A DNA stretch of 44,392 nt from a virus (taxonomy: Duplodnaviria; Heunggongvirae; Uroviricota; Caudoviricetes): IMG/VR virus record IMGVR_UViG_2778261532_000008; one strand, 5' to 3'. Numbering within the stretch: the first letter of the stretch is position 1; each line of letters begins with the position of its first letter. This document shows positions 1 through 29,759 of the stretch, piece after piece. A program made the position numbers and the translations under genes. Below the pieces are notes generated by a model. That model saw only the letters and a program-made list of their open reading frames with translations, was not told where the DNA came from and made no database searches.

Positions 1-63
1 GTCAACATAAGGGGATGAGTCCTTAATAAAACAGGTCCTCAGAGCATACATATTCTGCGGGGC

Positions 64-462
64 GTGCGGCAACAACAGGACGAACCGGGGCGGTTTTCAA
101 TTTGCAGCCGCCAGGCTGCCGTGGTTCTTGGTGCTGGGTTTGCATGGGAACGTCATCAGCTAAAGCAAGCCATCGAGAAAATTGGCAGTCTTGATCAGGC
201 TGTTAAGGAACGTGATAAGTCAATAATGGATCTTAACCAGACCATTGAGACGATGAACAAAGCAGATCAACATTTTCACAGCCAGGAAGTGAAAAATGAA
301 TCAGAGCAAGCCAAGTATGCTGACAGGCAAATGGAACGAAAAGCAGAAGTTCAGAAACAACTGGTTGCGGCGGGTAATGTTCGCCAGCGCATTCCTGCTG
401 ACACTCAGCGGTTGCTCCGGGAGTCGATCAGCGAATTTAACGCCGACGCCGACAAAGGTTAA
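64..462 (+). CDS. hypothetical coiled-coil protein (GTG start); overlaps the downstream lipoprotein ORF, so one of the two may be mis-called
   Basis: 132-codon ORF, E/K/Q-rich heptad-like sequence; no recognisable motif; overlap with 296..628 in another frame. Confidence 0.3.
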   Translation: MRQQQDEPGRFSICSRQAAVVLGAGFAWERHQLKQAIEKIGSLDQAVKERDKSIMDLNQTIETMNKADQHFHSQEVKNESEQAKYADRQMERKAEVQKQLVAAGNVRQRIPADTQRLLRESISEFNADADKG

Positions 463-639: not shown

Positions 640-1032
640 ATGTCTGATAAAGTAACAGTTAAGCAAACTATCAACAAAGCGACTTCAATCTATAAAATTG
701 AGCAAATCACTGTTGGCAAGCCAGGATCTGAACAATACCGTCATGCTTTCGAACTTGCCGATCAGCTTGGTTTAAAACACCCGGATTGTATCGAGCATGT
801 ATTTCCAACTTATGCTGATGAGCAATGTAATCAAGTGCTTATTGAAGAGGATTTTTTCAGCACTGAAGAACGAGAAGGCGTTGATCGCTGCATTGGTGTG
901 ATTTGTTCTTCGGTAAGTGATGATTTATTCCCTAATGTTCCGGAAGGTGGTGGTGTTGGATACCAATTCCTGTATGAAGGCGATGAGCTTAAATGTTATG
1001 AACATGGTCTTCTTATCGAAAGCGTAGAATAA
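640..1032 (+). CDS. hypothetical protein (P1 upfA position)
   Basis: 130-aa ORF followed by an intrinsic terminator; no motif recognised. Confidence 0.55.
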   Translation: MSDKVTVKQTINKATSIYKIEQITVGKPGSEQYRHAFELADQLGLKHPDCIEHVFPTYADEQCNQVLIEEDFFSTEEREGVDRCIGVICSSVSDDLFPNVPEGGGVGYQFLYEGDELKCYEHGLLIESVE

Positions 1033-1046
1033 TACGGTTTCCTTCC

Positions 1047-1071
1047 AACCGGCTTTGTTGGCCGGTTTTTC
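1047..1071 (+). terminator. rho-independent terminator
   Basis: Stem AACCGGC/GCCGGTT with 7-nt loop followed by TTTTT. Confidence 0.6.
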
Positions 1072-1335
1072 ACTTATCCACATTATCCACTGGATAGATC
1101 CAATAATCAGGTCCATACAGATCCCAATTAGATCCATATAGATCCCTGATCGTCGTAGGCCGCGCCCCGTCTGGCTTAGAAGCCTTTCGCGATGTGTGCT
1201 GGAGGGAAAATGATGTGCGCTGGAGGGAAAAAAATGTGTGCTGACGGGTTGCTAATGTGTGCTGGCGGGATATAGGATGTGTGCTGACGGGAAAGCCTGG
1301 GTAGTTATCACCGCTTATAAAAACTATCCACATAA
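1072..1335. promoter_or_regulatory. oriR: P1-type plasmid origin oriR/incC: tandem DnaA boxes, GATC cluster, five 19-bp RepA iterons, distal DnaA box
   Basis: TTATCCACA (1074-1082) and TTATCCACT (1084-1092); five GATC within 1097-1151; five direct repeats GATGTGTGCTGGAGGGAAA-like at 1191-1294 spaced ~21 bp; TATCCACA at 1324-1331; recalled P1 oriR architecture. Confidence 0.85.
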
Positions 1336-1350
1336 TTCGGAAAAAGTAAT

Positions 1351-2211
1351 ATGAATCAATCATTTATCTCCGATATTCTTTACGCAGACATTGAAAGTAA
1401 GGCAAAAGAACTAACAGTTAATTCAAACAACACTGTGCAGCCTGTAGCGTTGATGCGCTTGGGGGTATTCGTGCCGAAGCCATCAAAGAGCAAAGGAGAA
1501 AGTAAAGAGATTGATGCTACCAAAGCGTTTTCCCAGCTGGAGATAGCTAAAGCCGAGGGTTACGATGATATTAAAATCACCGGTCCTCGACTCGATATGG
1601 ATACTGATTTCAAAACGTGGATCGGTGTCATCTACGCGTTCAGCAAATACGGCTTGTCTTCAAACACCATCCAGTTATCGTTTCAGGAGTTCGCTAAAGC
1701 CTGTGGTTTCCCCTCAAAACGTCTGGATGCGAAACTGCGTTTAACCATTCATGAATCACTTGGACGCTTGCGTAACAAGGGTATCGCTTTTAAGCGCGGA
1801 AAAGATGCTAAAGGCGGCTATCAGACTGGTCTGCTGAAGGTCGGGCGTTTTGATGCTGACCTTGATCTGATAGAGCTGGAGGCCGATTCGAAGCTCTGGG
1901 AGCTGTTCCAGCTTGATTATCGCGTTCTGTTGCAACACCACGCCTTGCGTGCCCTTCCGAAGAAAGAAGCTGCACAAGCCATTTACACTTTCATCGAAAG
2001 CCTTCCGCAGAACCCGTTGCCGCTATCGTTCGCGCGAATCCGTGAGCGCCTGGCTTTGCAGTCAGCTGTTGGCGAGCAAAACCGTATCATTAAGAAAGCG
2101 ATAGAACAGCTTAAAACAATCGGCTATCTCGACTGTTCAATTGAGAAGAAAGGCCGGGAAAGTTTTGTAATCGTCCATTCTCGCAATCCAAAGCTGAAAC
2201 TTCCCGAATAA
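1351..2211 (+). CDS. repA: plasmid replication initiator RepA (iteron-binding), P1 type
   Basis: 286-aa ORF flanked upstream by 5 and downstream by 9 copies of the same 19-bp iteron; length and sequence match my recollection of P1 RepA. Confidence 0.9.
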   Translation: MNQSFISDILYADIESKAKELTVNSNNTVQPVALMRLGVFVPKPSKSKGESKEIDATKAFSQLEIAKAEGYDDIKITGPRLDMDTDFKTWIGVIYAFSKYGLSSNTIQLSFQEFAKACGFPSKRLDAKLRLTIHESLGRLRNKGIAFKRGKDAKGGYQTGLLKVGRFDADLDLIELEADSKLWELFQLDYRVLLQHHALRALPKKEAAQAIYTFIESLPQNPLPLSFARIRERLALQSAVGEQNRIIKKAIEQLKTIGYLDCSIEKKGRESFVIVHSRNPKLKLPE

Positions 2212-2497
2212 GTGTGTGCTGGAGGGCAGCTGCATTTGAAAAATGTGCGCTGCCGGGAATGCCTGCCCATTTTCCTGTTTTTGGTGTGCGCTGGAGGGTT
2301 GCGCCACGCAGTTTGCCCAGACATTCCCTCCAGCACACATCTAACCATCCAAGTTTCCCTCCAGCGCACATCTAATCTTCTATCTTTCCCTCCAGCACAC
2401 ATATTTGATACCAGCGATCCCTCCACAGCACATAATTCAATGCGACTTCCCTCTATCGCACATTCTGGTCCTGCATCATCCCTCCAGCACACATCTA
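2211..2497. repeat. incA: incA copy-control iteron array (nine 19-bp RepA sites, 3 in one orientation and 6 in the other)
   Basis: Repeats of GTGTGCTGGAGGG / CCCTCCAGCACACAT at ~2211, 2245, 2285, 2326, 2357, 2388, 2419, 2449, 2479. Confidence 0.85.
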
Positions 2498-2604
2498 ATA
2501 GCCTCATCGCCATTTCTTTACGTGCAATAATTGACGCACGAATCAAAAAAAGTTGCACGTAGCAGAATCAAACGTACAATTCACTCATACGAAATGATAA
2601 GGAG

Positions 2605-3816
2605 ATGATGATGAAACGCGATTACGGCGGTGTCGGCACCATAGCTCTTCGTGCAAGCGCATTACTTAAGGCCATGAGTCAGGATATTGAAGATCAGCGC
2701 AAAGAGTTCAATCAGACCGAGTATTATCAGACGTTCACTCGTAACGCTGTGGCAAAGTTGCCGAAGCTGAGCCGCCGCATTGTGGAGCAGGCCATCAAAG
2801 AGATGGAAGATGATGGGTACCAGTTCAACAAGAAACAGGTCGGTAACGTTGAACAGTACGCGCTGACCATCCAGAACGTCATTGATATCTATGCCCACCG
2901 TAAGATCCCCAAATATCGCGACATTCACAAATCGCCTTACGTTATTTTTGTCGTAAACCTGAAGGGTGGCGTATCCAAAACGGTTTCCACAGTCACGTTG
3001 GCGCACGCTCTGCGTGTGCATCAGGATTTACTGCGTCACGATCTGCGCATTCTGGTAATTGACCTTGACCCTCAGGCATCCAGCACAATGTTCCTCGACC
3101 ATACTCACAGTATTGGTTCCATCCTGGAAACCGCCGCGCAGGCGATGCTGAACGACCTGGACGCGGAGACGCTACGCAAAGAGGTGATTCGTCCGACCAT
3201 CGTTCCTGGCGTAGACGTGATTCCAGCCTCTATCGACGATGGCTTTGTTGCCAGCCAATGGAAAGAGCTGGTTGAAGAGCATCTTCCCGGACAAAATCAG
3301 TACGAAATCCTTCGACGCAATATCATTGATCGTGTTGCGGATGATTATGACTTTATCTTTATTGATACCGGTCCACACCTGGATCCGTTCCTGCTCAACG
3401 GTCTGGCGGCCAGCGATTTGCTGCTTACCCCTACCCCACCAGCCCAGGTTGACTTCCACTCAACACTGAAATATCTCACCCGTCTGCCAGAAATGCTGGA
3501 GCAACTGGAGGAGGAAGGCGTAGAACCGCGTTTGAGCGCCAGCATTGGTTTTATGTCGAAGATGACCGGCAAGCGCGATCACGAGACATCACACAGCCTT
3601 GCGCGTGAGGTTTACGCCAGCAACATTCTGGACTCTTCTCTGCCTCGTCTGGATGGCTTTGAGCGATGCGGCGAGTCTTTCGACACCGTAATCAGTGCCA
3701 ACCCGCAATCGTATCCAGGCAGTGCAGAGGCGCTGAAGAAGGCACGAACCGAGGCCGAGCGTTTCACTAAGGCTGTGTTTGATCGAATTGAGTTTGTTAG
3801 GGGTGAGGCGGCATGA
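2605..3816 (+). CDS. parA: partition ATPase ParA (type Ia, Walker-type with N-terminal regulatory extension); true start may be the third ATG at 2611
   Basis: Deviant Walker A NLKGGVSKT, ILVIDLDPQ motif; homologous in outline to P1/P7 ParA but clearly divergent; precedes overlapping parB. Confidence 0.9.
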   Translation: MMMKRDYGGVGTIALRASALLKAMSQDIEDQRKEFNQTEYYQTFTRNAVAKLPKLSRRIVEQAIKEMEDDGYQFNKKQVGNVEQYALTIQNVIDIYAHRKIPKYRDIHKSPYVIFVVNLKGGVSKTVSTVTLAHALRVHQDLLRHDLRILVIDLDPQASSTMFLDHTHSIGSILETAAQAMLNDLDAETLRKEVIRPTIVPGVDVIPASIDDGFVASQWKELVEEHLPGQNQYEILRRNIIDRVADDYDFIFIDTGPHLDPFLLNGLAASDLLLTPTPPAQVDFHSTLKYLTRLPEMLEQLEEEGVEPRLSASIGFMSKMTGKRDHETSHSLAREVYASNILDSSLPRLDGFERCGESFDTVISANPQSYPGSAEALKKARTEAERFTKAVFDRIEFVRGEAA

Positions 3817-4778
3817 AAAAAATAGTTTCCCGTGGACGAGTGCTGGGCAAGAATAGCTCCGAGTTTGCTCGCATGCTTGAAGGCAGTGAAGGCACCAAAA
3901 CCTTTACCCTAAAATCTGGCCGCCAGGCTAAATTCTTGCTTACCGTCGTGCTGAGTGGTGAGATTGAGTCGCGCACGTTCGTTGACCCGGCAGTTAACGG
4001 CCGCGATCAGTCTCTGCTCACCCCTGAGTCGGTAAGCGATATTTCCCGCACCATTAAATTGCAACAGTTCTTCCCGGCTATCGGTCGTATGGTTGGGGAG
4101 CGCATTGAGGTATTGGACGGATCGCGTCGCCGTGCTGCGTGTATCTTCAATGAAACGAAATTTGAGATTCTGGTGACGAAAGATGAGATCAGCCTGGCGG
4201 ATGCCCGCCAGCTGGCCATTGATATCCAGACAGCCCGCGAACACACTCTGCGCGAGCTGGGTAAACGCTTCGAGGTTATGTACGGTAAGAATATGACCAA
4301 AGAAGAGATCGCCCGAGCTGAGAACATCTCAAAGGCTAAAGTGACGCGAGCTTTCCAGGCTGCCGCGGTGCCGGATGAGATGATTGCTGTCTTCCCCGTA
4401 GCCAGCGATCTCGCCCTTCCAGATTACCAGTTACTGCTCCAGATCGCCGAGGATGCTAACGCTAAAAGCGTGCCGATTGAAGAGCTGGTTGATACGGTGC
4501 GCGAACGAATTGCAGAGACTGAGGGCGCGAAAGAGGATAAAGCGAAGATACTGGCTATCTTCAAAGCGGAAAGCAAAAGCCTGAAGCCCGCGCCGGTTAA
4601 ATCTGTGGTGGTTGAGAAGCTGCGAGACTTCTCTGACCGTCGCCAATATGCCCGAAAGAAGTCCGATCCGAAAAAACGGGTTGTCGCCTACGAGTTCTCC
4701 AGACTCCCGTCTGAAGTGCAAACTGAAATTGACGAAGCAATAAAAAAAATCATTGGGAAAATGTCTGCTGGGGAATAA
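3813..4778 (+). CDS. parB: partition centromere-binding protein ParB
   Basis: ATGA overlap with parA stop; motifs ILDGSRRR and KAKVTRA characteristic of P1-family ParB; divergent from P1 ParB as I recall it. Confidence 0.9.
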   Translation: MKKIVSRGRVLGKNSSEFARMLEGSEGTKTFTLKSGRQAKFLLTVVLSGEIESRTFVDPAVNGRDQSLLTPESVSDISRTIKLQQFFPAIGRMVGERIEVLDGSRRRAACIFNETKFEILVTKDEISLADARQLAIDIQTAREHTLRELGKRFEVMYGKNMTKEEIARAENISKAKVTRAFQAAAVPDEMIAVFPVASDLALPDYQLLLQIAEDANAKSVPIEELVDTVRERIAETEGAKEDKAKILAIFKAESKSLKPAPVKSVVVEKLRDFSDRRQYARKKSDPKKRVVAYEFSRLPSEVQTEIDEAIKKIIGKMSAGE

Positions 4779-4835
4779 TCCCGCTGGTGGGAGGCGGCTT
4801 TAGCCCCCTCCCCTGTCTAAAATGTCCCGCGCCTA

Positions 4836-4905
4836 TTTCATGTATAAATATATGATATATATAGATATTCATGAAAAATTTCAGACTGAAATTCCCACGG
4901 TTTCA
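4836..4905. promoter_or_regulatory. parS: candidate parS centromere: AT-rich core with inverted heptamers ATTTCAG-AC-TGAAAT
   Basis: Perfect palindrome AATTTCAGACTGAAATT at ~4872-4890, further ATTTCA(T/C) heptamers at 4845 and 4897, AT-rich IHF-like core; sits immediately 3' of parB as in P1. Confidence 0.5.
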
Positions 4906-4972
4906 CGCCTGTTTTACTTGCCCCCCTCCCCCGCACAAAAAATTTAAAAAATTACTTTTAGCGAGAAAGTCA

Positions 4973-4993
4973 ACAAGTGACTTTCAATAAAAT
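4973..4993 (+). promoter_or_regulatory. late-promoter-like element ACAAGTGACTT-N4-TAAAAT upstream of the head gene
   Basis: Member of a 5-site motif family seen upstream of late operons in this window. Confidence 0.4.
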
Positions 4994-5044
4994 CTCTTCC
5001 GAAAAGGGATTCACACAAGTGCCTTGTGTTTAAGGAAGAGTAAA

Positions 5045-6751
5045 TTGAGTAACTTACGCGAATACCAGAATCGTATTGCAGATATCGCAAAACGCTCTAA
5101 AGCTGTGCTTGGCTGGGCAAGCACTGCGCAGTTCGGTACTGATAACCAATTCATTAAAGATGATGCCGCGCGTGCCGCATCTATCCTTGAAGCTGCACGT
5201 AAAGACCCGGTTTTTGCGGGTATCTCTGATAATGCCACCGCTCAAATCGCTACAGCGTGGGCAAGTGCACTGGCTGACTACGCCGCAGCACATAAATCTA
5301 TGCCGCGTCCGGAAATTCTGGCCTCCTGCCACCAGACGCTGGAAAACTGCCTGATTGAGTCCACCCGCAATAGCATGGATGCCACTAATAAAGCGATGCT
5401 GGAATCCGTCGCAGCAGAGATGATGAGCGTTTCTGACGGTGTTATGCGTCTGCCTTTATTCCTCGCGATGATCCTGCCTGTTCAGTTGGGGGCAGCTACC
5501 GCTGATGCGTGTACCTTCATTCCGGTTACGCGTGACCAGTCCGACATCTATGAAGTCTTTAACGTGGCAGGTTCCTCTTTTGGTTCTTATGCTGCTGGTG
5601 ATGTTCTGGACATGCAATCCGTCGGTGTGTACAGCCAGTTACGTCGCCGCTATGTGCTGGTGGCAAGCTCCGATGGCACCAGCAAAACCGCAACCTTCAA
5701 GATGGAAGACTTCGAAGGCCAGAATGTACCAATCCGAAAAGGTCGTACTAACATCTACGTTAACCGTATTAAGTCTGTTGTTGATAACGGTTCCGGCAGC
5801 CTACTTCACTCGTTTACTAATGCTGCTGGTGAGCAAATCACTGTTACCTGCTCTCTGAACTACAACATTGGTCAGATTGCCCTGTCGTTCTCCAAAGCGC
5901 CGGATAAAGGCACTGAGATCGCAATTGAGACGGAAATCAATATTGAAGCCGCTCCTGAGCTGATCCCGCTGATCAACCACGAAATGAAGAAATACACCCT
6001 GTTCCCAAGTCAGTTCGTTATCGCGGCTGAGCACACGGTACAGGCGGCGTATGAAGCACAGCGTGAATTTGGTCTGGACCTGGGTTCCCTACAGTTCCGC
6101 ACCCTGAAGGAATACCTGTCTCATGAACAGGATATGCTGCGTCTTCGCATCATGATCTGGCGCACTCTTGCGACCGACACCTTTGACATCGCTCTGCCGG
6201 TTAACCAGTCCTTTGATGTATGGGCAACCATCATTCGTGGCAAATTCCAGACTGTATATCGCGACATTATTGAGCGCGTTAAATCTTCTGGTGCGATGGG
6301 GATGTTTGCTGGTGCTGATGCAGCATCTTTCTTCAAACAGTTGCCGAAGGATTTCTTCCAGCCAGCCGAAGACTATATCCAGACTCCGTATGTTCACTAC
6401 ATCGGTACCCTGTTCGGTAACGTGAAAGTGTACGAAGTACCTGCTGGTATTTGTAAGAACTTAACGACAGAGAACATTCAGTTCAGCTCGATGGATGTGC
6501 TGTGCTACGTCCGTGATGAAAATCCGGGTAAAGCAGGCTTCGTGACTGGTGATGCTGTCCCGGCCATCCCGTTCCAGCATCCGACCACTCCGGCGCTGGT
6601 CAACCGTACCACGCTGTGGGGTTCGGCTATCAACGATATGCACCCACGCAACGGCGCTGATTACTTCACTCGTGTAACGCTGACAATGGCCAAAAAAGGC
6701 GGGCTTAACTTCATAAGCGGCGACACGATTGATGCCGGTGACTCTGAGTAA
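5045..6751 (+). CDS. putative major head (capsid) protein precursor, P1 gene 23 position; TTG start at 5045 preferred over TTG 5024
   Basis: AAGGAAGAG Shine-Dalgarno 7 nt before TTG 5045; large ORF directly after parS as gene 23 is in P1; function assigned by synteny only. Confidence 0.5.
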   Translation: MSNLREYQNRIADIAKRSKAVLGWASTAQFGTDNQFIKDDAARAASILEAARKDPVFAGISDNATAQIATAWASALADYAAAHKSMPRPEILASCHQTLENCLIESTRNSMDATNKAMLESVAAEMMSVSDGVMRLPLFLAMILPVQLGAATADACTFIPVTRDQSDIYEVFNVAGSSFGSYAAGDVLDMQSVGVYSQLRRRYVLVASSDGTSKTATFKMEDFEGQNVPIRKGRTNIYVNRIKSVVDNGSGSLLHSFTNAAGEQITVTCSLNYNIGQIALSFSKAPDKGTEIAIETEINIEAAPELIPLINHEMKKYTLFPSQFVIAAEHTVQAAYEAQREFGLDLGSLQFRTLKEYLSHEQDMLRLRIMIWRTLATDTFDIALPVNQSFDVWATIIRGKFQTVYRDIIERVKSSGAMGMFAGADAASFFKQLPKDFFQPAEDYIQTPYVHYIGTLFGNVKVYEVPAGICKNLTTENIQFSSMDVLCYVRDENPGKAGFVTGDAVPAIPFQHPTTPALVNRTTLWGSAINDMHPRNGADYFTRVTLTMAKKGGLNFISGDTIDAGDSE

Positions 6752-19266: not shown

Positions 19267-22200
19267 ATGGAAAGAAAAAACGCCAACATTGACGATGTTA
19301 TAAGGACAGTTGAAACCGCCAGCGCAAAAGAGCTGGAAGAGCTTGCAGGTATCCGGGAAGCTGTTGAAGATTTGAAAGGGGGACGCGTTGCTACTGTTGA
19401 TCCTGTCTCTCGCAGCGTGTCGGCATTAAATCGCACAATCGAAAATTCACGTCCTGACTTTGTGACCAAAGCGCCATCAGTAGACCCTATTGTTGACGCA
19501 ATGAAACGGCTTAATTTAGGGGACGTTTCTCGTGTAGTTCAGGAAGATGTTGCTCAACAGGAACAGCGGGCCAAATCAACCACACCAAAGGGTAAAAAAC
19601 GACGCAGGAAGGCTATACCAGAGGATGTAAAGGCACAACGGACCGAAGCAGCCGAACACGCTCGCGAAATGTTCGGTCAAAAAGGCGGTGCGCAAAAAAG
19701 CCAAAACCAACGCGATGCGCGTGGTCGTTTTATTGGAAAGTCAGGGAGTAAGGCCGCAGCGGAAGAAGCCCGTGCTGAACGAGCAGAAAAGGCCAGGCGA
19801 AAAGAGGATGATGAGCGTCTAAATGCTGAATCAGGTTTATTAAAAAAATTGTCAAAAGTAGCTGAAGGCATAGGTAACCCTTCAGAGACTCGTGCCGTCG
19901 ATGCGTTAGGTTATGCCGTTGCTGGTCCATTGTGGGCAGCAGGGAAGGAGCTTGGCGGGATATCAAAAGAAGTTGGCGGATCGCTTAATGGTGCCAGAAA
20001 GTCTATTGCCGATGTGATTCGTGGCAATGACGATAACAGCCGTAGAAAAGGTTTTTTTAGGCGTAAATCGCAAAATAGTGCCGATGTCGTTCAGGTTAAC
20101 ACCCAAAAACGGACGGTTCAGGAACTTCAGGATCAGACCAGCGAAATTAAAGAGGGCAATGACAAGATTCTCAGCGCCCTTGATCAGATAGCCAAAAACA
20201 CCGGGAAAAAGAAGGGCGGCTTGCTGTCCAAATTATTTAGCCTGTTAGGGAAGGGGGCCGGTGGTATTGCCTCCCTTATTTTTGGCCGTGGGGCACTAAA
20301 GAAAGTTGGCTCGATGGCACTCGGCGCTTTAGGTATTAAGGGGGTAGGGAAACTAGGGATTAAGGCGGTCGCAAAAGGCGCTTTACGTGCAATTCCGCTA
20401 GTCGGCACGGTGGCTGGAGGTATCTATGATGCGGTAACCGGTTGGAATGATATAGAAGCGCAACGCCGAGCGTTTGGGCTTAAATCAGGACAAGATCCAT
20501 CATTCCAGCAAAAAGCCGCTTATACGTTAGCTAATGTTCTTGATATGGGGGGACTGGTATCTGGTATTAGCAGCGCCATTGGTGAGGTTCTCAAATCACT
20601 TGGATTTGAGGATATCGGCAATATGTTGCAATCATTTTCGACGGAAAGTATTGCCCAGGCCATTGATAGCGGGGTTACCAACTTAGAAACATATATTTCT
20701 AATCTTGGCGACACCATTTCTACCAAGTTCGATGATTATACAGCAAAGATTGGTGATGCTATTTCTGCATGGTTCAGTGACACCACAAAGAATCTGAACG
20801 AAAAATTAGACGCCATCAAAAACTTCTTTACTGTCGATAACCTGAAACAGGTTTTCAGTGATGCAATTGATAGTGCAATTGATTTCATTAAGAATCCTGG
20901 GAAATACATTAAAGAGGCTGGCAGTAATCTATGGAGTGCCGCAAAAGAGCTTTCAGGTGAGGTTGCAGATGCCGCTGTTCAGAGCACCCCTGTGGCCTGG
21001 GTTGCATCAAAGCTAGTCAACAAAGCGGATGCGAAAGAGGTTACACCTGAATTAAAAACACCAGCTAAAGAAAGTCAGGAGGACAATGCTCCTAAGACTG
21101 AATATACCCCTAAAAAGGCTAATATTGTCACTCGTGTTGTAAATGCATCCCTAGATACGGCGAAAGATAGCAATAAAACAGTTAAAGAAACTGCCAATCA
21201 GATTATCAATGCAAATGCCGTAGAAACGGGCAATCGCGCGTTGCAGAAAATTGATAATGCTATTGGTCAAAATAGCTCGTCATCATCCTCGCTTAATACC
21301 ACTGGCACTAGGAATGACATTCAGAAAGCTGCGGATACCTACAATAATGGCAACTTGGATGTAAAAGTCGGAAGTCTTGGCGCTGAAGGTAAGGCAAATC
21401 TCGATAAGTTGGCTCCGTATTTTGCTGAACTAGAGAATAAATATGGCCTTCCTGAAGGTACTCTTTACGCGATCGCTGCAACTGAATCTGGTGGTGATCC
21501 TAACGCAAAATCTACGCTTACAAGATCACCAAATGGAAAGCTAAGTGGTGGCGCTCTCGGAATGTTCCAGTTTACGAGCGTTGCTCGTGAGGAAACTGGA
21601 TTATCCCGGGAAGATTCTTTTAATCCGGAAAAATCGGCAGAAGCTGCGGCTCTTCTCATGAGCAAGTATCTGAAGCAAGCCAATGGAGACTTAAACGAGG
21701 CCATCACTGCATATAACGCTGGGTTTGGCACTATCAATAAGTGGAAAAAAGGCACAGGTGACTTATCGAAAGAAAACCGTGAGTACGCGATCAAGGTCAA
21801 TACTCATCGTGCTCGCTATTTAGGTGGTGAAATCTATACACCTGGAGCAGGAGCACAGGGTGGGGCGCAATATGGAGTGAGGGGACCACTGCCTGATAAC
21901 GCTGTTATCGATCAGTCTACTGGCTTGGCGTTTACCCCTGGTGATAGCCCGTTTGAGAAAGGCGGTCTGGTAGACAAAATCGGCAATGCTGTTGGCGTTA
22001 ACGATCTGGTCAACAAATTCATGAATGGCCGGGGTATGCGTCGGGAAGTCGTTCAGGGAACGCTCGAAGAACGTGCACGAGGGAAGGGGACCGCAACAGC
22101 AGCTGGCAATGTGTATGTTGATACCCCGATGCCAGTTGAAGAGGCGCGTCCGGTGGCCAACAACTCAAGTTACTTTGACCAGCTCGGCGCACAAATGGGG

Positions 22201-22599
22201 ATTGATGGACTATTCGATAAACTCCGCAACTCGCCGGGGATGCGGAAAAATAATGAGCCTGAACCAGCCTCCACGTCCCAGGTGACGACTGCCGCCAACG
22301 ATTTGCAGCAACCAACCGGTCGTATGCAGATAGACGGACAGGTTATTAGTGACCTTGGCGGCTCCGGTGCCAAGCCGACAATGCAGTTGGCTGATAATAC
22401 CGTTTCACTTGATGGTGAAACGAAGCGGCTGTTTGCGCAGATGACCTCATTGCTTGCCAGGATTGAAGAGCACACCAAAGACTCGGCGAAAGGCCAGGGA
22501 ACTGTCGTAAAGGTCAGCACGCCTCAGCCGGGCGTTATGCGCACGGTACCACTGTCAATTGATGATCCGTTGATGAATGACTACGCGAGAGTTGATTGA
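19267..22599 (+). CDS. sit: tape-measure-like structural protein with C-terminal lytic transglycosylase (SLT) domain, P1 Sit-like
   Basis: 1110-aa ORF; Gly-rich hydrophobic segment (GGIASLIFGRGALKKVGSMALGALGIKGVG); SLT-type motifs AATESGG...GMFQF...AYNAG at ~21470-21730. Confidence 0.8.
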   Translation: MERKNANIDDVIRTVETASAKELEELAGIREAVEDLKGGRVATVDPVSRSVSALNRTIENSRPDFVTKAPSVDPIVDAMKRLNLGDVSRVVQEDVAQQEQRAKSTTPKGKKRRRKAIPEDVKAQRTEAAEHAREMFGQKGGAQKSQNQRDARGRFIGKSGSKAAAEEARAERAEKARRKEDDERLNAESGLLKKLSKVAEGIGNPSETRAVDALGYAVAGPLWAAGKELGGISKEVGGSLNGARKSIADVIRGNDDNSRRKGFFRRKSQNSADVVQVNTQKRTVQELQDQTSEIKEGNDKILSALDQIAKNTGKKKGGLLSKLFSLLGKGAGGIASLIFGRGALKKVGSMALGALGIKGVGKLGIKAVAKGALRAIPLVGTVAGGIYDAVTGWNDIEAQRRAFGLKSGQDPSFQQKAAYTLANVLDMGGLVSGISSAIGEVLKSLGFEDIGNMLQSFSTESIAQAIDSGVTNLETYISNLGDTISTKFDDYTAKIGDAISAWFSDTTKNLNEKLDAIKNFFTVDNLKQVFSDAIDSAIDFIKNPGKYIKEAGSNLWSAAKELSGEVADAAVQSTPVAWVASKLVNKADAKEVTPELKTPAKESQEDNAPKTEYTPKKANIVTRVVNASLDTAKDSNKTVKETANQIINANAVETGNRALQKIDNAIGQNSSSSSSLNTTGTRNDIQKAADTYNNGNLDVKVGSLGAEGKANLDKLAPYFAELENKYGLPEGTLYAIAATESGGDPNAKSTLTRSPNGKLSGGALGMFQFTSVAREETGLSREDSFNPEKSAEAAALLMSKYLKQANGDLNEAITAYNAGFGTINKWKKGTGDLSKENREYAIKVNTHRARYLGGEIYTPGAGAQGGAQYGVRGPLPDNAVIDQSTGLAFTPGDSPFEKGGLVDKIGNAVGVNDLVNKFMNGRGMRREVVQGTLEERARGKGTATAAGNVYVDTPMPVEEARPVANNSSYFDQLGAQMGIDGLFDKLRNSPGMRKNNEPEPASTSQVTTAANDLQQPTGRMQIDGQVISDLGGSGAKPTMQLADNTVSLDGETKRLFAQMTSLLARIEEHTKDSAKGQGTVVKVSTPQPGVMRTVPLSIDDPLMNDYARVD

Positions 22600-22955
22600 T
22601 GGCCAATAATAACGAAATTGATCCTTTGCTGACGCTGGAGTTATCCGGCGTAAAAACGTATGAGTCCCAGGAGGAGGCCTGGGGCGCTCGTTTATATGAG
22701 TGGCTAAACACTTATCAGGGTGAGGTATACGGGGATCCGTCATGGGGCAATGTTTTACCGCAGTTTAAACACGAACCGACCAACTTGTCGCATGTTCAAA
22801 TTGCGGTTGAGGCAATGCTGTTGCAAAAACTGACGGTAGATTTACCTGACATACCGATTTCTGGCTTGTCAGTAGCCGAGGGAGATGCTTTTGATAAGTT
22901 GAAAATATCCATTCGTATCAGGGATATAACTATCACACAGGACGTGGTGCTATGA
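22596..22955 (+). CDS. baseplate protein, gp25/W-like (P1 pmgA position)
   Basis: 119-aa ORF overlapping sit stop; size and position typical of the gp25-like baseplate wedge subunit. Confidence 0.5.
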   Translation: MMANNNEIDPLLTLELSGVKTYESQEEAWGARLYEWLNTYQGEVYGDPSWGNVLPQFKHEPTNLSHVQIAVEAMLLQKLTVDLPDIPISGLSVAEGDAFDKLKISIRIRDITITQDVVL

Positions 22956-24385
22956 GTAAAACAACACCGACTAAAGACAGTATTCGTGCAGAGTTTGAAG
23001 AGCTTGTCGAGAAAGATTCATTCTGGTCGAAGTTTGTCGGCTCTCAATTTGTCTCGATGCTGACATTGTTTATTACCCAGATTGTCTACAGGTGCTTTCA
23101 GTATGCCGATGCGGCGCTGGCTGAAGGCTTTATATCGACCGCGACGCGGCGTTCCTCTATCCTGGCAGCGGCAGAAACGAATAGTTACGTTGGTACCAAG
23201 CCAACACCGTCATCGGGGATGATTGAGATCACCGCCACAAGTGAAGATGCCCCAGCGGTAATCCCCAAAAACATGCCTTTAATATCTGACGACCAGTACC
23301 CTTACATGACTATGGATGTATGCAGGTTGGTTGACGGCACCGGTACGGTAGAAGTGGCACAGTTGGAAATCCAGGAGGTGACATATACCGTTACGGCAGC
23401 CAAAGAATTTCTGGAAGTCGTGTTATCAAAGGCTCTCACTGCTGTCTGCTATAAGCTGGAAGTATTCGTGACGACCGATGGTAAGACCACACAGTGGTCT
23501 TCCAGCACTATGTTCCGGTTAGCCGGTAGTAAAAGCCAGGTCTACGTTGAGTTTTATAAACCATCCGAGCAGTTGGGGGTTCGATTCGGTGATGGGCTAA
23601 TTGGGCAAATACCGCCAGAAGGCTCGACCATTACACTTAAGGTATGGTGCACCAACGGAGATATAACCTTGGTTGCTGGCCAAAATCTGACGCCTGTCGA
23701 TTCTGCTGCTAATTTAGCTAATTTGATTTCAGTTAAGACAACGACACCCATAACCGCAGGTACCGATGCCGAAACAACGGAGATCACACGTAATCGTGCA
23801 CAATATTACCTTGCCTATGATGATCAGGTCGTATGGGGCGGGGACTATACGTATTTTCTGGTGCGTAACATCCCGGGACTGTCCTGGATAAAGGCATGGG
23901 GCGAAGGCCAGCAAGAGAAATTAGATGGTGCTTATAATGTTCGGAATATCAATAAGATATTTATTTCAGGATGGCATCCAAACAAAAGCCAGTCAGAGCT
24001 TGAAGAAATGATCCTGGCTGCCTTTAAGAAGGTGCCGAATGAGTTGAACAAGAAATTCTCGTATAAAGAGGTCAGAAAACTACCCTTTAAGATCACCATC
24101 ACCGGGCGGATATCGGCAAGCCTGACCATTGAGAACGTGACTGATGAGCTGAAGTCGGCACTGGAAACAAAATTTGGGCGCGACTCAACTTTCTTTGATC
24201 CGAACCGCGTCGGAAAGTACATCCTGATTAAGAAAAAAGACGTTTGGGCGTTTATCGAAACGCTGGGTTATTTCCGCGACTTTTATCTGGAATTTGTCGA
24301 GTGGAATGAGTCCAACGGCTTTTACGATTTCGTTTATCTGGATACAGAAAGCTCCACCTTTAATATTTCGTATGAGGAGGAGTGA
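22952..24385 (+). CDS. baseplate protein (J/gp6-like; P1 bplA position)
   Basis: 477-aa ORF overlapping the previous stop; synteny. Confidence 0.5.
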   Translation: MSKTTPTKDSIRAEFEELVEKDSFWSKFVGSQFVSMLTLFITQIVYRCFQYADAALAEGFISTATRRSSILAAAETNSYVGTKPTPSSGMIEITATSEDAPAVIPKNMPLISDDQYPYMTMDVCRLVDGTGTVEVAQLEIQEVTYTVTAAKEFLEVVLSKALTAVCYKLEVFVTTDGKTTQWSSSTMFRLAGSKSQVYVEFYKPSEQLGVRFGDGLIGQIPPEGSTITLKVWCTNGDITLVAGQNLTPVDSAANLANLISVKTTTPITAGTDAETTEITRNRAQYYLAYDDQVVWGGDYTYFLVRNIPGLSWIKAWGEGQQEKLDGAYNVRNINKIFISGWHPNKSQSELEEMILAAFKKVPNELNKKFSYKEVRKLPFKITITGRISASLTIENVTDELKSALETKFGRDSTFFDPNRVGKYILIKKKDVWAFIETLGYFRDFYLEFVEWNESNGFYDFVYLDTESSTFNISYEEE

Positions 24386-25221
24386 TGCAGCGTTCCTGGT
24401 TTAATAACCGGCTTACATCAGCTAAGCAAAAGTCATTGCTCTATAAATCATTGGCTGATTTGGTTCAGTCAATGATGGACACCTTTGTTGACCCATGGTT
24501 GGAGCGAATTACCAACCGGAAGTCTATTTTCTCCATGAGCAAGGAGGATCTGGAGACCAGGACAAATGAACTTGGCCAGTTCTTTACTATCAGAACCTCG
24601 AACTCATCTTCCGTTCCGATGTTGTTACAACAGCGGCTTGATGAGATCCACTTTAAGGGAACTGAACGCCCTATAAACCAGACAATTTACCGCGAATTTA
24701 ACGGTATTTCTGTTTTATGGGATCCGATATATGCACCGGTGGACCTTGAGCGTCATCCCTATGGCACGGTTCTAATACCAGAAAGCACACTGGAGACTAC
24801 CGGCGGCACATTCGGCGAGATGTTTCTGACTTCCAGAGGGATGATCAGTATTCCCATAAACGACTTGGCCCGGACAATGGGGATTACTGGCACGATAGAT
24901 CAGTCCGCAATTACAGAAGAAATTCTCAGAAAGTTTAATCAGTTCGTAAAGCCTCTACTGCCACTGCATATAGTGTTTGATGGGCTTACGCTCTATTTGT
25001 CGGTTGTTGTAAATGAACAGGCCGACATGATCACTTTGAACGAGATTTCTGATACCGAAAAAGCGTACTGCTGGTTTGAAACTTCGGATACAACTTCGCT
25101 TACTGGAGTTACGTCGATTAGCGCTCCGATCACTGCAACGCCGGGCGGCACTATTGTGAAAGCAACGCCTACGTTTGATCGCACCCGCGCAGATGATTTG
25201 CTGCTGGATAGCGATGCCTGA
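24382..25221 (+). CDS. baseplate protein (P1 gene 16 position)
   Basis: 279-aa ORF overlapping the previous stop; followed by a GC-rich hairpin. Confidence 0.45.
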   Translation: MMQRSWFNNRLTSAKQKSLLYKSLADLVQSMMDTFVDPWLERITNRKSIFSMSKEDLETRTNELGQFFTIRTSNSSSVPMLLQQRLDEIHFKGTERPINQTIYREFNGISVLWDPIYAPVDLERHPYGTVLIPESTLETTGGTFGEMFLTSRGMISIPINDLARTMGITGTIDQSAITEEILRKFNQFVKPLLPLHIVFDGLTLYLSVVVNEQADMITLNEISDTEKAYCWFETSDTTSLTGVTSISAPITATPGGTIVKATPTFDRTRADDLLLDSDA

Positions 25222-25248
25222 CAATCACCCCGTCCGTAGGGCGGGGTG

Positions 25249-25269
25249 ACAAGTTACTTCTCTTACAAT
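25249..25269 (+). promoter_or_regulatory. late-promoter-like element ACAAGTTACTT-N4-TACAAT upstream of the R and S genes
   Basis: Motif family member. Confidence 0.35.
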
Positions 25270-25299
25270 GAGGCTTCACAACATTGATTAGGGAAAATC

Positions 25300-25734
25300 A
25301 TGTCTGACGTCTCAACAAACCTCTATAAGAGTCAGTTGTTGGACTATTACTATCAGCGGCGCGCTGAATCGTCCATTAACAAAGGCTCTCGATTTTTAAT
25401 CAGCAAGGCCGTTTTCGGTACCAGTTCGCTGGTTACCAAGAAAGGAGATGGCACTTATGAGATTGGAGAACTGCCAAAGGCTTTCGATCTGGCAGAACTG
25501 ACCAGTCAATTTTGCACCATCAACCTCGTGCCAACCTACTCAGGTGGGATAATTACTGTCCGAATGGACCTTGATCAAAGCCAGTTGCAGGAAGGGAAAA
25601 ACTACCCATTCAACACTCTGGTTGTTCTGGATAACGAGAACAAGCCAATCGCCATTATTTGTGTCCAGGAAGACTCGCTGTATGTGGGCAAAACATATAC
25701 CGCAGTTATGGCCATAAACACGACTACAGCATAA
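25300..25734 (+). CDS. tail fibre-associated protein (P1 R position)
   Basis: 144-aa ORF immediately upstream of tail fibre gene. Confidence 0.5.
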   Translation: MSDVSTNLYKSQLLDYYYQRRAESSINKGSRFLISKAVFGTSSLVTKKGDGTYEIGELPKAFDLAELTSQFCTINLVPTYSGGIITVRMDLDQSQLQEGKNYPFNTLVVLDNENKPIAIICVQEDSLYVGKTYTAVMAINTTTA

Positions 25735-25745
25735 GGATATGCTTG

Positions 25746-28664: not shown

Positions 28665-28666
28665 TT

Positions 28667-29200
28667 ATGATGCACTTAAAAAATATTACTGCTGGCAACC
28701 CTAAAACAAAAGAGCAATACCAGCTAACGAAACGATTTAACATCAAATGGCTTTATACAGAGGATGGGAAGAACTGGTATGAGGAACAAAAGAACTTTCA
28801 GCCTGATACGTTGAAAATGGTCTATGACCACAACGACGTTATTATTTGTATTGAAAAGGATGTTTCAGCAATTAATCCAGAAGGCGCAAGCGTCGTTGAG
28901 GTTCCTGATATTACAGCAAATCGCCGGGCTGATATTTCGGGTAAATGGATGTTCAAAGATGGCGTAGTGATAAAGCGAACTTATACCGAGGAGGAACAGA
29001 GGCAGCAGGCAGAGAATGAAAAGCAAAGCCTGTTGCAACTTGTCAGGGATAAAACCCAGCTATGGGACTCACAGCTACGGCTGGGCATCATTTCCGACGA
29101 GAATAAACAAAAATTAACCGAGTGGATGCTCTATGCGCAGAAAGTCGAATCTACAGACACCTCCAGCCTGCCAGTAACGTTTCCAGAACAACCAGAATGA
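28667..29200 (+). CDS. U: tail fibre assembly chaperone U
   Basis: 177-aa ORF directly after S; N-terminal ~120 residues homologous to the convergent U' ORF. Confidence 0.8.
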   Translation: MMHLKNITAGNPKTKEQYQLTKRFNIKWLYTEDGKNWYEEQKNFQPDTLKMVYDHNDVIICIEKDVSAINPEGASVVEVPDITANRRADISGKWMFKDGVVIKRTYTEEEQRQQAENEKQSLLQLVRDKTQLWDSQLRLGIISDENKQKLTEWMLYAQKVESTDTSSLPVTFPEQPE

Positions 29201-29203
29201 AAC

Positions 29204-29228
29204 AAGGCCCGCTATCGGGCCTTAATTT
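29204..29228. terminator. bidirectional terminator between convergent U and U'
   Basis: AAGGCCCG-CTAT-CGGGCCTT hairpin flanked by A/T runs on both sides. Confidence 0.6.
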
Positions 29229-29759
29229 TTATTCAGGCTTTTGTGGCCATTCGGGCTTTGCCGTATCCACGCGGCTGACCAGAACGCTGTAGCGTTCCCA
29301 TGACTCCAGTCGTGTGCGCTCCTCGTCTGTTGCCATATTCAGCCTGACAGCGCGTTCCAGCGGCTGGATGACTGATTCAGCTTCGGAAAGCAATGCGGCC
29401 TTTTGTGATTCGGCCTGTTGTTGCTGTTCGTCTGCCGTATAAATCCGTTTAACCACAGCTCCATCCTTAAACATCCACTTCCCGGAGTCATCAGCACGTC
29501 GGTTGGCAGTAATATCGGGAACCTCAACGACGCTAAAACCTTCAGGGTTAAGCGTGGATGCATCTTTAGTGATGGCGACAATAATATTATTTTCATCGTA
29601 AACAATCTTTATTGTGTCTGGTTGAAAGTTTTTCACTTCCTCATACCAGTTTTTATCGTCTTCGGACCATAACCAGATAACATCAAAATTCTTTGTTAGC
29701 TGATATTGTTCTTTCGTTTTAGGATTTCCAGACTTAATATTTTTTAAATGCTGCATCAT
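29229..29759 (-). CDS. alternative tail fibre assembly chaperone U'
   Basis: 176-aa ORF, paralogue of U. Confidence 0.8.

What the first reader, a model, noticed from the sequence alone, without database searches (positions are those of the whole stretch)
1072..4940. Mosaic maintenance region: P1-type iteron replicon joined to a divergent ParAB-parS partition system
The RepA ORF and its 19-bp iterons look essentially P1-like. ParA and ParB, by contrast, are clearly homologous to but substantially different from the P1 proteins as I recall them, and the centromere candidate has ATTTCAG heptamers in a perfect palindrome (AATTTCAGACTGAAATT). C-rich boxes flank it on both sides (CCCCTCCCC at ~4803 and ~4924). 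This suggests the partition cassette was swapped as a module, which would change partition incompatibility relative to P1.
Basis: partly seen in the sequence, partly recalled or inferred. Interest (0 to 1): 0.5.

Follow-up and report, generated by a model that had tools for sequence, protein, structure and literature searches.

The report
Phage P7-type partition cassette, P1 replicon
This is the ordinary plasmid-maintenance region of a P1/P7-group phage-plasmid: the P1 replication module sits next to the partition module already described for phage P7, a combination found in hundreds of sequenced plasmids.

Summary

- **Replicon:** window 1072-4940 holds the IncY/P1 plasmid replicon. It has DnaA boxes, five GATC sites, five incC iterons, repA and nine incA iterons. 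RepA is 100% amino-acid identical to both P1 and P7.
- **Partition operon:** ParA is 100% identical to phage P7 ParA and 57% to P1 ParA. ParB matches P7 at 319 of 321 residues and is 40% identical to P1.
- **parS:** it has the P7 box layout, including the P7 discriminator hexamer TTCCCA where P1 has TCGCCA.
- **Junctions:** identity to P1 falls from over 95% to unalignable within about 35 bp at the end of incA (about 2464-2499). It returns just past parS (about 4907-4961). This is a clean 2.4-kb cassette replacement.
- **Relatives:** the cassette belongs to the pMT1/IncFIB branch of the P1par family (ParA 89% and ParB 67% identical to Yersinia pestis pMT1/pFra).
- **Prevalence:** the P7-type cassette is in 237 PLSDB plasmids and the P1-type in 547. 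The whole 3.9-kb region is 99.8% identical to CP063718.1.
- **C-rich boxes:** the left one is the 3' arm of a hairpin after parB. The right one is P1-type backbone sequence outside parS.

Interest is low.

The parts
1074..1091 (+). Two tandem DnaA boxes at the left edge of oriR (TTATCCACA, TTATCCACT). A third box lies at 1324-1332.
   Evidence: Pattern scan. A DnaA site is annotated at the same position in P7 and P1.
1097..1151 (.). Cluster of five GATC (Dam methylation) sites in oriR
   Evidence: GATC at 1097, 1120, 1131, 1141 and 1148. P1 and P7 both annotate five Dam sites here.
1191..1294 (+). incC: five 19-bp RepA iterons (copies 14-10), part of oriR and overlapping the repA promoter
   Evidence: Copies 14, 12 and 11 are identical to P1 and P7. 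Copy 13 differs from both.
1351..2211 (+). repA, iteron-binding initiator (286 aa)
   Evidence: 100% amino-acid identity to P1 and P7 RepA; all nucleotide differences are synonymous. Pfam Rep3_N.
2211..2495 (.). incA: nine RepA iterons (copies 9-7 on +, 6-1 on -), the copy-number control locus
   Evidence: The left half (2188-2388) is a third allele, 84-88% identical to both P1 and P7, and is found at 99% or more in 127 PLSDB plasmids.
2464..2499 (.). Left junction of the par cassette: identity to P1 collapses here while identity to P7 stays at about 100%
   Evidence: Three-way alignment. Megablast to P1 stops at query position 1427, which is window 2498.
2500..2604 (+). P7-type par promoter/operator region, with inverted repeat TACGTGCAA (2519-2527) / TTGCACGTA (2553-2561)
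   Evidence: About 100% identical to P7 and unalignable with P1. PMC8465637 reports that the P1 and P7 par promoters differ in sequence and have inverted-repeat ParA motifs. No consensus sigma-70 match was found by the simple scan.
2605..3816 (+). parA, type Ia partition ATPase (403 aa) with N-terminal HTH and Walker A motif KGGVSKT
   Evidence: 100% amino-acid identity to P7 ParA and 57.1% to P1. PDB 3ez9/3ezf match over 403/403 residues with 4 substitutions. Pfam HTH_54 + AAA_31.
3813..4778 (+). parB, centromere-binding protein (321 aa). It overlaps parA by 4 nt.
   Evidence: 319/321 identical to P7 ParB (N160S and A212S in P7) and 39.9% to P1. Pfam ParB PF08775, TIGR00180. Residues 137-316 align to the P1 ParB-DNA structures 1zx4/2ntz.
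4786..4814 (+). G+C-rich hairpin after the parB stop codon. Its 3' arm is the left 'C-rich box'.
   Evidence: Inverted repeat GGGAGGCGGCT/AGCCCCCTCCC. Minimum free energy -17.9 kcal/mol, but z is only -1.5. pMT1, Klebsiella and Serratia relatives have a hairpin plus T-run at the same position.
4824..4906 (+). parS centromere, P7 type. Box B1 4824-4829 GTCCCG; A1 4835-4841 ATTTCAT; IHF site 4845-4857; A2 4878-4884 ATTTCAG; A3 4886-4892 CTGAAAT; B2 4892-4897 TTCCCA; A4 4900-4906 GTTTCAC.
   Evidence: Transfer of the AF503408 annotation. All boxes are identical to P7, and B2 differs from P1 TCGCCA. Only two bases differ from P7, at 4866 and 4885, both outside the boxes.
4907..4961 (.). Right junction of the cassette, including the right C-rich box (4921-4932). 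Identity to P1 returns to 97-100% from about 4962.
   Evidence: P1 has a degenerate C-rich tract (CCTTCCTCCCCTCCTCCC) at the same place. The tract is absent downstream of parS in the non-phage relatives.

Best explanation
The region is the plasmid-prophage maintenance block of a P1/P7-group (Punavirus) phage-plasmid in the phage P7 configuration. The IncY RepA/iteron replicon is shared with P1, and it is followed by the P7 'species' of the P1par family of type Ia ParABS systems.

**Replication (inferred from identity to the studied P1 system).** RepA binds the five incC iterons in oriR and, with DnaA, starts replication. The nine incA iterons hold copy number down.

**Partition (shown only by sequence identity to P7).** ParB, with IHF, binds parS. 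The helix-turn-helix domain reads the box A heptamers and the C-terminal dimer domain reads the box B hexamers. ParA, a nucleoid-bound Walker ATPase, positions the ParB-parS complexes. ParA also represses the parAB promoter through its N-terminal helix-turn-helix.

**Specificity.** Box B is TTCCCA here and TCGCCA in P1, and ParB is the P7 protein. The cassette should therefore neither work with nor show partition incompatibility against P1 par. The element should stay incompatible with P1 through the shared replicon.

**Origin.** The par block differs from P1 because a whole 2.4-kb module was replaced between the end of incA and the sequence just past parS.
For: - **Overall identity:** the 3.9-kb region is 98.0% identical to phage P7 over its full length, while P1 matches only the first 1427 nt.
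- **Proteins:** RepA is 100% identical to P1 and P7. ParA is 100% and ParB 99.4% identical to P7, against 57.1% and 39.9% to P1.
- **parS:** all boxes are identical to the P7 annotation and box B2 differs from P1.
- **Junctions:** both are sharp, at about 2464-2499 and about 4907-4961.
- **Relatives:** ParA is 89% and ParB 67% identical to Y. pestis pMT1/pFra, and the relatives keep the same B-A-IHF-A-A-B-A parS layout.
- **Domains:** HTH_54 + AAA_31 for ParA, ParB PF08775 for ParB, Rep3_N for RepA.
- **Structure:** the P7 ParA crystal structure 3ez9/3ezf matches end to end.
- **Prevalence:** the P7-type cassette is in 237 PLSDB plasmids and the P1-type in 547. The whole region covers at least 80% in 225 plasmids, the best being CP063718.1 at 99.8%.
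- **Literature:** PMC6906374 lists the replicon/par block as a variable hot spot of P1-like plasmids and reports 'parAB 99.8% P7 (minimal similarity to P1)' in pTZ20_1P. PMC10999674 describes box A, box B and IHF and names box B2 as the incompatibility discriminator. PMC8465637 reports that the P1 and P7 par operators are dissimilar.
Against: - Nothing in the sequence contradicts this explanation.
- Function is inferred from identity and was not tested here.
- The window differs from reference P7 by two ParB residues (160, 212), two parS bases outside the boxes (4866, 4885), a 91-96% patch in parB (4190-4490) and its own incA allele.
- The primary P7 par papers (Ludtke 1989; Hayes and Austin 1993; Radnedge 1998; Dabrazhynetskaya 2005) are not held in the library. 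Their content is cited from memory or second-hand.
Confidence: 0.95

Rival explanations
1. The cassette is a new partition specificity, distinct from both P1 and P7. The cause would be the ParB substitutions at positions 160 and 212 and the parS changes at 4866 and 4885.
For: There are two amino-acid differences and two parS base differences relative to AF503408. In this family, single residues and base pairs can switch specificity (title of Dabrazhynetskaya 2009, as listed in PMC10999674).
Against: All seven box A and box B elements are identical to P7. The two ParB changes are conservative. They lie in positions that also vary against P1, one before the helix-turn-helix and one between it and the dimer domain, and not in the C-terminal domain that reads box B. 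Position 4885 is the single spacer base between boxes A2 and A3. The exact cassette is 100.0% identical in NZ_CP101271.1 and 99% or more in 82 plasmids.
Confidence: 0.03
2. There was no module swap. The par genes simply diverged in place, faster than the replicon.
For: P1 and P7 ParA and ParB are homologous, in the same order, with the same parS layout.
Against: Identity to P1 steps from over 95% to unalignable within about 35 bp on the left and returns to 97-100% within about 50 bp on the right. The flanking repA and gene 23 encode proteins identical to their P1 counterparts, and repA differs from P1 at only 8 of 861 nt. ParA is 89% identical to pMT1-type ParA on unrelated IncFIB plasmids but only 57% to P1.
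Confidence: 0.02
3. The two C-rich boxes are functional parts or boundaries of the centromere, for example extra ParB sites, or microhomology used in the recombination that brought in parS.
For: The 19-nt direct repeat CCCCCTCCCCTGTCTAAAA / CCCCCTCCCCCGCACAAAA brackets parS at a spacing of 118 nt. CCCCTCCCC is over-represented, 3 copies against 0.24 expected.
Against: The left box is the 3' arm of a post-parB hairpin that relatives have in other sequences. The right box has a degenerate counterpart in P1, which has no left box. Neither box occurs next to parS in the pMT1, Klebsiella or Serratia relatives. From my own knowledge, functional P1 parS is confined to the box A, box B and IHF segment. 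A role as recombination microhomology cannot be excluded.
Confidence: 0.05

Closest known systems
Phage P7 plasmid maintenance region (AF503408 / NC_050152; X17529 par, J03308 rep)
   Same: Same order and content: oriR/incC, repA, incA, parA, parB, parS. RepA and ParA are 100% and ParB 99.4% identical. All parS boxes are identical, and DNA identity is 98.0% over 3869 bp.
   Different: The left half of incA is a different allele (84-88%). There is a 91-96% patch in parB giving 2 amino-acid changes, and 2 non-box bases differ in parS.
Phage P1 plasmid maintenance region (NC_005856)
   Same: RepA is identical, with the same 5 + 9 iteron layout, DnaA boxes and GATC cluster. The parA-parB-parS layout is the same, with box A, box B and IHF.
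   Different: ParA is 57% and ParB 40% identical. The par operator is unalignable. Box B is TCGCCA in P1 and TTCCCA here. P1 parS starts 5 nt after parB with no hairpin.
pMT1/pFra (Yersinia pestis) and related IncFIB/IncFII plasmid par systems of the P1par family
   Same: ParA is 89% and ParB 62-74% identical, with the same parS architecture and a hairpin between parB and parS.
   Different: The box B sequences differ (for example TCACCA in pMT1/pFra), and the replicons and plasmid backbones are different.
Natural P1-like phage-plasmids with P7-type par (for example pTZ20_1P in PMC6906374; CP063718.1; NZ_CP101271.1)
   Same: Same replicon plus P7-type par. CP063718.1 is 99.8% identical over the whole region and the NZ_CP101271.1 par cassette is 100.0% identical.
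   Different: No material difference. This window is one more member of that population.

Membership tests
P1par family, type Ia ParABS | ParA with an N-terminal helix-turn-helix autorepressor domain plus a deviant Walker A ATPase | tested here: met
   Pfam HTH_54 (E 3.8e-37) + AAA_31. KGGVSKT is visible in the translation. The P7 and P1 ParA structures match end to end.
P1par family, type Ia ParABS | ParB with a helix-turn-helix domain and a C-terminal P1-type dimer/box B-binding domain | tested here: met
   Pfam ParB PF08775 (E 4.4e-33), TIGR00180. Residues 137-316 align to P1 ParB 142-333 in structures 1zx4/2ntz.
P1par family, type Ia ParABS | parS immediately downstream of parB, with box A heptamers and box B hexamers in B-A / IHF / A-A-B-A order | tested here: met
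   Boxes at 4824-4906 in register with the P7 and P1 annotations. The IHF site read on the reverse strand, TATCATATATTTA, matches 8 of the 9 specified positions of WATCAANNNNTTR (direct reading of the sequence).
P7 species of the P1par family | P7 discriminator box B (TTCCCA at B2) and the P7 ParB C-terminal and N-terminal specificity regions | tested here: met
   B2 is TTCCCA and B1 is GTCCCG, both identical to P7. ParB differs from P7 only at residues 160 and 212.
P7 species of the P1par family | Functional specificity: stabilisation by the cognate proteins, partition incompatibility with P7 parS but not with P1 parS | not testable with these tools
   This needs plasmid stability and incompatibility assays. 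It is inferred here from sequence identity only.
IncY (P1-type) RepA-iteron replicon | P1 RepA initiator | tested here: met
   286/286 amino-acid identity to P1 and P7 RepA.
IncY (P1-type) RepA-iteron replicon | Five 19-bp iterons in oriR (incC) and nine in incA flanking repA, with DnaA boxes and a five-GATC cluster | tested here: met
   The positions coincide with the P1 and P7 annotations.
Module (cassette) replacement relative to P1 | Sharp identity breakpoints on both sides, and closer relatives of the cassette on unrelated replicons | tested here: met
   Breakpoints at about 2464-2499 and about 4907-4961. ParA is 89% identical to pMT1/pFra against 57% to P1.

The most novel reading that the evidence does not exclude
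This allele might behave as a new incompatibility or copy-control subtype within the P7-type group. The features that could cause this are the parB patch at 4190-4490 (ParB N160 and A212), the A at the centre of the A2/A3 palindrome, and its own incA iteron variants. If so, it would allow coexistence with canonical P7-type or P1-type phage-plasmids.
Probability: 0.03. Interest if true: 0.3.

Novelty: already known. Interest (0 to 1): 0.08.

Why it matters
It matters little beyond correct annotation. The P1 and P7 pair is the textbook example of homologous but species-specific partition systems joined to a shared replicon. This window shows that arrangement again in a wild phage-plasmid.

The practical value is for typing. 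P1-like phage-plasmids come in at least two common par alleles, with the P1 type in 547 PLSDB records and the P7 type in 237. Replicon typing by RepA alone does not distinguish them.

Tried and rejected
- **Primary papers:** I tried to read the P1 genome paper and the primary P1/P7/pMT1 par papers (PMC523184, PMC1196149, PMC94575, PMC2632008, PMC2699355). None is held. Statements about experimental P1/P7 specificity therefore rest on secondary citations (PMC10999674, PMC8465637, PMC5002424, PMC6906374) and my own knowledge.
- **par promoter:** the simple sigma-70 scan found no consensus promoter anywhere in 1000-5100, so the par promoter could not be placed computationally. By eye, TTGCAC (2553-2558), a 16-nt spacer and TACAAT (2575-2580) is a candidate.
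- **Post-parB hairpin:** it folds at -17.9 kcal/mol but is not significantly more stable than shuffles (z -1.5) and has no T-run. I do not call it a terminator.
- **C-rich boxes as centromere parts:** rejected, because they are not conserved in relatives and the right box is shared with P1.
- **New par specificity:** rejected, because all boxes and the specificity regions are identical to P7.
- **Rarity of the incA allele:** it is not rare, being present at 99% or more in 127 plasmids.
Full report
**What is there.**

The ORF map and raw sequence show three co-directional genes: repA (1351-2211), parA (2605-3816) and parB (3813-4778, overlapping parA by 4 nt).

- **Iterons:** the 19-bp iteron consensus GATGTGYGCTGGAGGGAAA matches 8 times at 3 or fewer mismatches, all between 1191 and 2495, against 0.04 expected. 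Repeat finding and transfer of the P7 annotation give the complete set: five direct copies upstream of repA (incC, 1191-1294) and nine downstream (incA, 2211-2495; three on the + strand, six on the - strand).
- **Origin:** to the left lie two tandem DnaA boxes (1074-1091) and five GATC sites (1097-1151). Another DnaA box sits at 1324.
- **Centromere:** downstream of parB, the palindrome AATTTCAG-A-CTGAAATT is at 4877-4893 and is unique in the window (0.03 expected).
- **C-rich boxes:** CCCCTCCCC occurs at 4805-4813 and 4923-4931.

**Identity.**

- **DNA:** megablast of 1072-4940 against phage records gives phage P7 (AF503408 / NC_050152) at 98.0% over the full 3869 bp. P1 (NC_005856, AF234172/3, K02380) matches only query positions 1-1427, which cover oriR, repA and incA.
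- **Proteins:** RepA is 286/286 identical to both P1 and P7. ParA is 403/403 identical to P7 and 57.1% to P1. ParB is 319/321 identical to P7 (N160S and A212S in P7) and 39.9% to P1. The flanking major head protein gp23 is 568/568 identical to P1.
- **repA nucleotides:** the 8 differences from P1 and 11 from P7 are all synonymous.
- **Structures:** the PDB holds P7 ParA (3ez9/3ezf, 403 aa, 4 substitutions relative to this protein) and P1 ParA (3ez2/3ez6/3ez7). P1 ParB 142-333 bound to DNA (1zx4, 2ntz) aligns to residues 137-316 here.
- **Domains:** Pfam and NCBIfam give the expected architecture. ParA has the HTH_54 N-terminal domain plus AAA_31, ParB has PF08775 and TIGR00180, and RepA has Rep3_N.

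**Anatomy of the mosaic.**

- **Left of the cassette:** a three-way alignment of window, P7 and P1 shows 83-100% identity to P1 from about 190 to about 2463 (91-100% outside the divergent incA left half at 2188-2388).
- **Left junction:** identity to P1 collapses within the spacer before iteron 1 and is lost completely after 2499.
- **Inside the cassette:** identity to P1 is 19-70% through parA, parB and parS.
- **Right junction:** identity returns to 97-100% from about 4962, upstream of gene 23.
- **Against P7:** the same interval is 100% identical to P7 for most of its length. It falls to 91-96% only within a patch in parB at 4190-4490.

The exchanged unit is thus about 2.4 kb. It contains the par operator, parA, parB, a post-parB hairpin and parS.

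**The centromere.**

In window coordinates the P7 annotation gives box B1 at 4824-4829 (GTCCCG), A1 at 4835-4841, the IHF site at 4845-4857, A2 at 4878-4884, A3 at 4886-4892, B2 at 4892-4897 (TTCCCA) and A4 at 4900-4906.

- Every box is identical to P7.
- P1 has TCGCCA at both B boxes and slightly different A boxes.
- Only two bases differ from reference P7: 4866 in the AT-rich spacer and 4885, the single base between A2 and A3.

According to PMC10999674, the A2-A3 and B2 boxes are the minimal ParB site, and box B2 is the discriminator that sets P1-specific partition incompatibility. PMC5002424 summarises that P1-type ParBs read the inverted repeat with the helix-turn-helix domain and the second motif with the dimer domain, and that the ParB N-terminus specifies the ParA interaction. 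Both regions here are identical to P7.

From my own knowledge of Ludtke et al. 1989, Hayes and Austin 1993 and Radnedge et al. 1998 (none held in the library), P1 and P7 par neither cross-complement nor exert partition incompatibility on each other.

**The operator.**

Region 2500-2604 is P7-type and unalignable with P1. It contains a perfect 9-nt inverted repeat, TACGTGCAA / TTGCACGTA, with 25 nt between the arms. This agrees with PMC8465637, which reports that the P1 and P7 par promoters are very different in sequence yet both carry inverted-repeat ParA motifs.

**The C-rich boxes.**

- **Left box:** it is the 3' arm of a hairpin (4786-4814, GGGAGGCGGCT/AGCCCCCTCCC) between the parB stop codon and parS.
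- **Relatives:** those on other plasmids (Y. pestis pMT1/pFra, Klebsiella, Serratia) have a hairpin at the same place with unrelated sequence and a T-run. P1 has none.
- **Right box:** it lies beyond box A4, in the junction zone. P1 has a degenerate counterpart (CCTTCCTCCCCTCCTCCC), and the non-phage relatives have nothing similar.

The boxes are therefore not conserved parts of the centromere. A role as microhomology in the original recombination cannot be excluded.

**Where the cassette comes from, and how common it is.**

- **Family size:** tblastn of ParB against PLSDB finds 4630 plasmids in the family.
- **Closest branch:** the P7-type proteins are closest to Serratia, Klebsiella and Yersinia plasmid systems. 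ParA is 88.6-89.3% and ParB 61-74% identical to them, while P1 is the outlier at 56-57% and 40-42%.
- **Cassette counts:** the P7-type cassette (2500-4940) is present in 237 PLSDB plasmids, 234 of them full-length. It is 100.0% identical in NZ_CP101271.1. The P1-type cassette is in 547.
- **Whole region:** the complete 3.9-kb region covers at least 80% in 225 plasmids, the best being CP063718.1 at 99.8%.
- **Literature:** Venturini et al. (PMC6906374) already list the replicon/par block as one of five variable hot spots of P1-like plasmids. They report 'parAB 99.8% P7 (minimal similarity to P1)' in pTZ20_1P.

**Mechanism.**

Every step below is inferred from identity to the studied systems. 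None was tested here.

1. RepA binds the incC iterons and, with DnaA, opens oriR.
2. The incA iterons titrate or handcuff RepA to hold copy number near one.
3. ParB and IHF assemble on parS.
4. ParA-ATP on the nucleoid positions the complexes.
5. ParA, with ParB as corepressor, represses the par promoter.
6. Specificity is set by ParB with box B and by the ParB N-terminus with ParA.

The element should therefore be partition-compatible with P1 but still replicon-incompatible with it, because RepA and the iteron cores are shared.

**Context.**

The whole window is colinear with P7 in reverse orientation, with a few replacements.

**Verdict.**

Novelty: already known. Interest: low.

Noticed in passing
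window 39075-40775: This segment has no match in P7, which carries nmpC here. In P1 this is the isaA-IS1-isaB variable hot spot. It holds two minus-strand ORFs: 39106-39894 (262 aa, no Pfam hit) and 39901-40746 (281 aa). The second has a C-terminal Tad2-like (Thoeris anti-defence 2-like, PF11195) domain, E 5.7e-23.
   Followed up: partly
window 42287-43622: A 1.3-kb insertion relative to P7, between the proB and lydD homologues. It carries a 402-aa IS200/IS605-family TnpB (OrfB_IS605 + Cas12f1-like TNB + HTH). There is no tnpA, and no terminal repeats were detected.
   Followed up: partly
window 2188-2388 (left half of incA): This stretch is 84-88% identical to both P1 and P7, although P1 and P7 are 95-98% identical to each other here. 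Iterons 13, 9, 8, 7, 6 and 5 differ from both phages. This third allele is common, at 99% or more in 127 PLSDB plasmids.
   Followed up: yes
window 1351-2211 (repA): RepA is 100% amino-acid identical among this element, P1 and P7, while the genes differ at 8-11 nucleotides. All differences are synonymous, which indicates very strong purifying selection on the initiator.
   Followed up: yes
window 4190-4490 (inside parB): A patch of 91-96% nucleotide identity to P7 is embedded in otherwise 100% identical sequence. It gives only two amino-acid changes and looks like a small recombination or gene-conversion tract. PLSDB P7-type cassettes split into 82 records at 99% or more and 150 records at 95-99%.
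   Followed up: partly
window 1-124: The first 124 nt match neither P1 nor P7. The window starts at or near another breakpoint, upstream of or inside the ppfA homologue (ORF 64-462).
   Followed up: no
window 20346-31704: The tail-fibre / invertible C-segment region is only about 93% identical to P7, with patches at 66-70%. Phage RCS47 covers this half of the window better than P7 or P1.
   Followed up: no
GenBank OP279344.1 (match to window 1072-4940): A record labelled 'Escherichia phage P1' (host MG1655 Z1, 88,362 bp) carries the P7-type par cassette, 98.4% identical over the whole region. The name P1 therefore does not guarantee P1-type par.
   Followed up: no
window 12615-12623 (- strand): This is the third copy of CCCCTCCCC in the window, 3 observed against 0.24 expected. 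Its significance is unknown.
   Followed up: no
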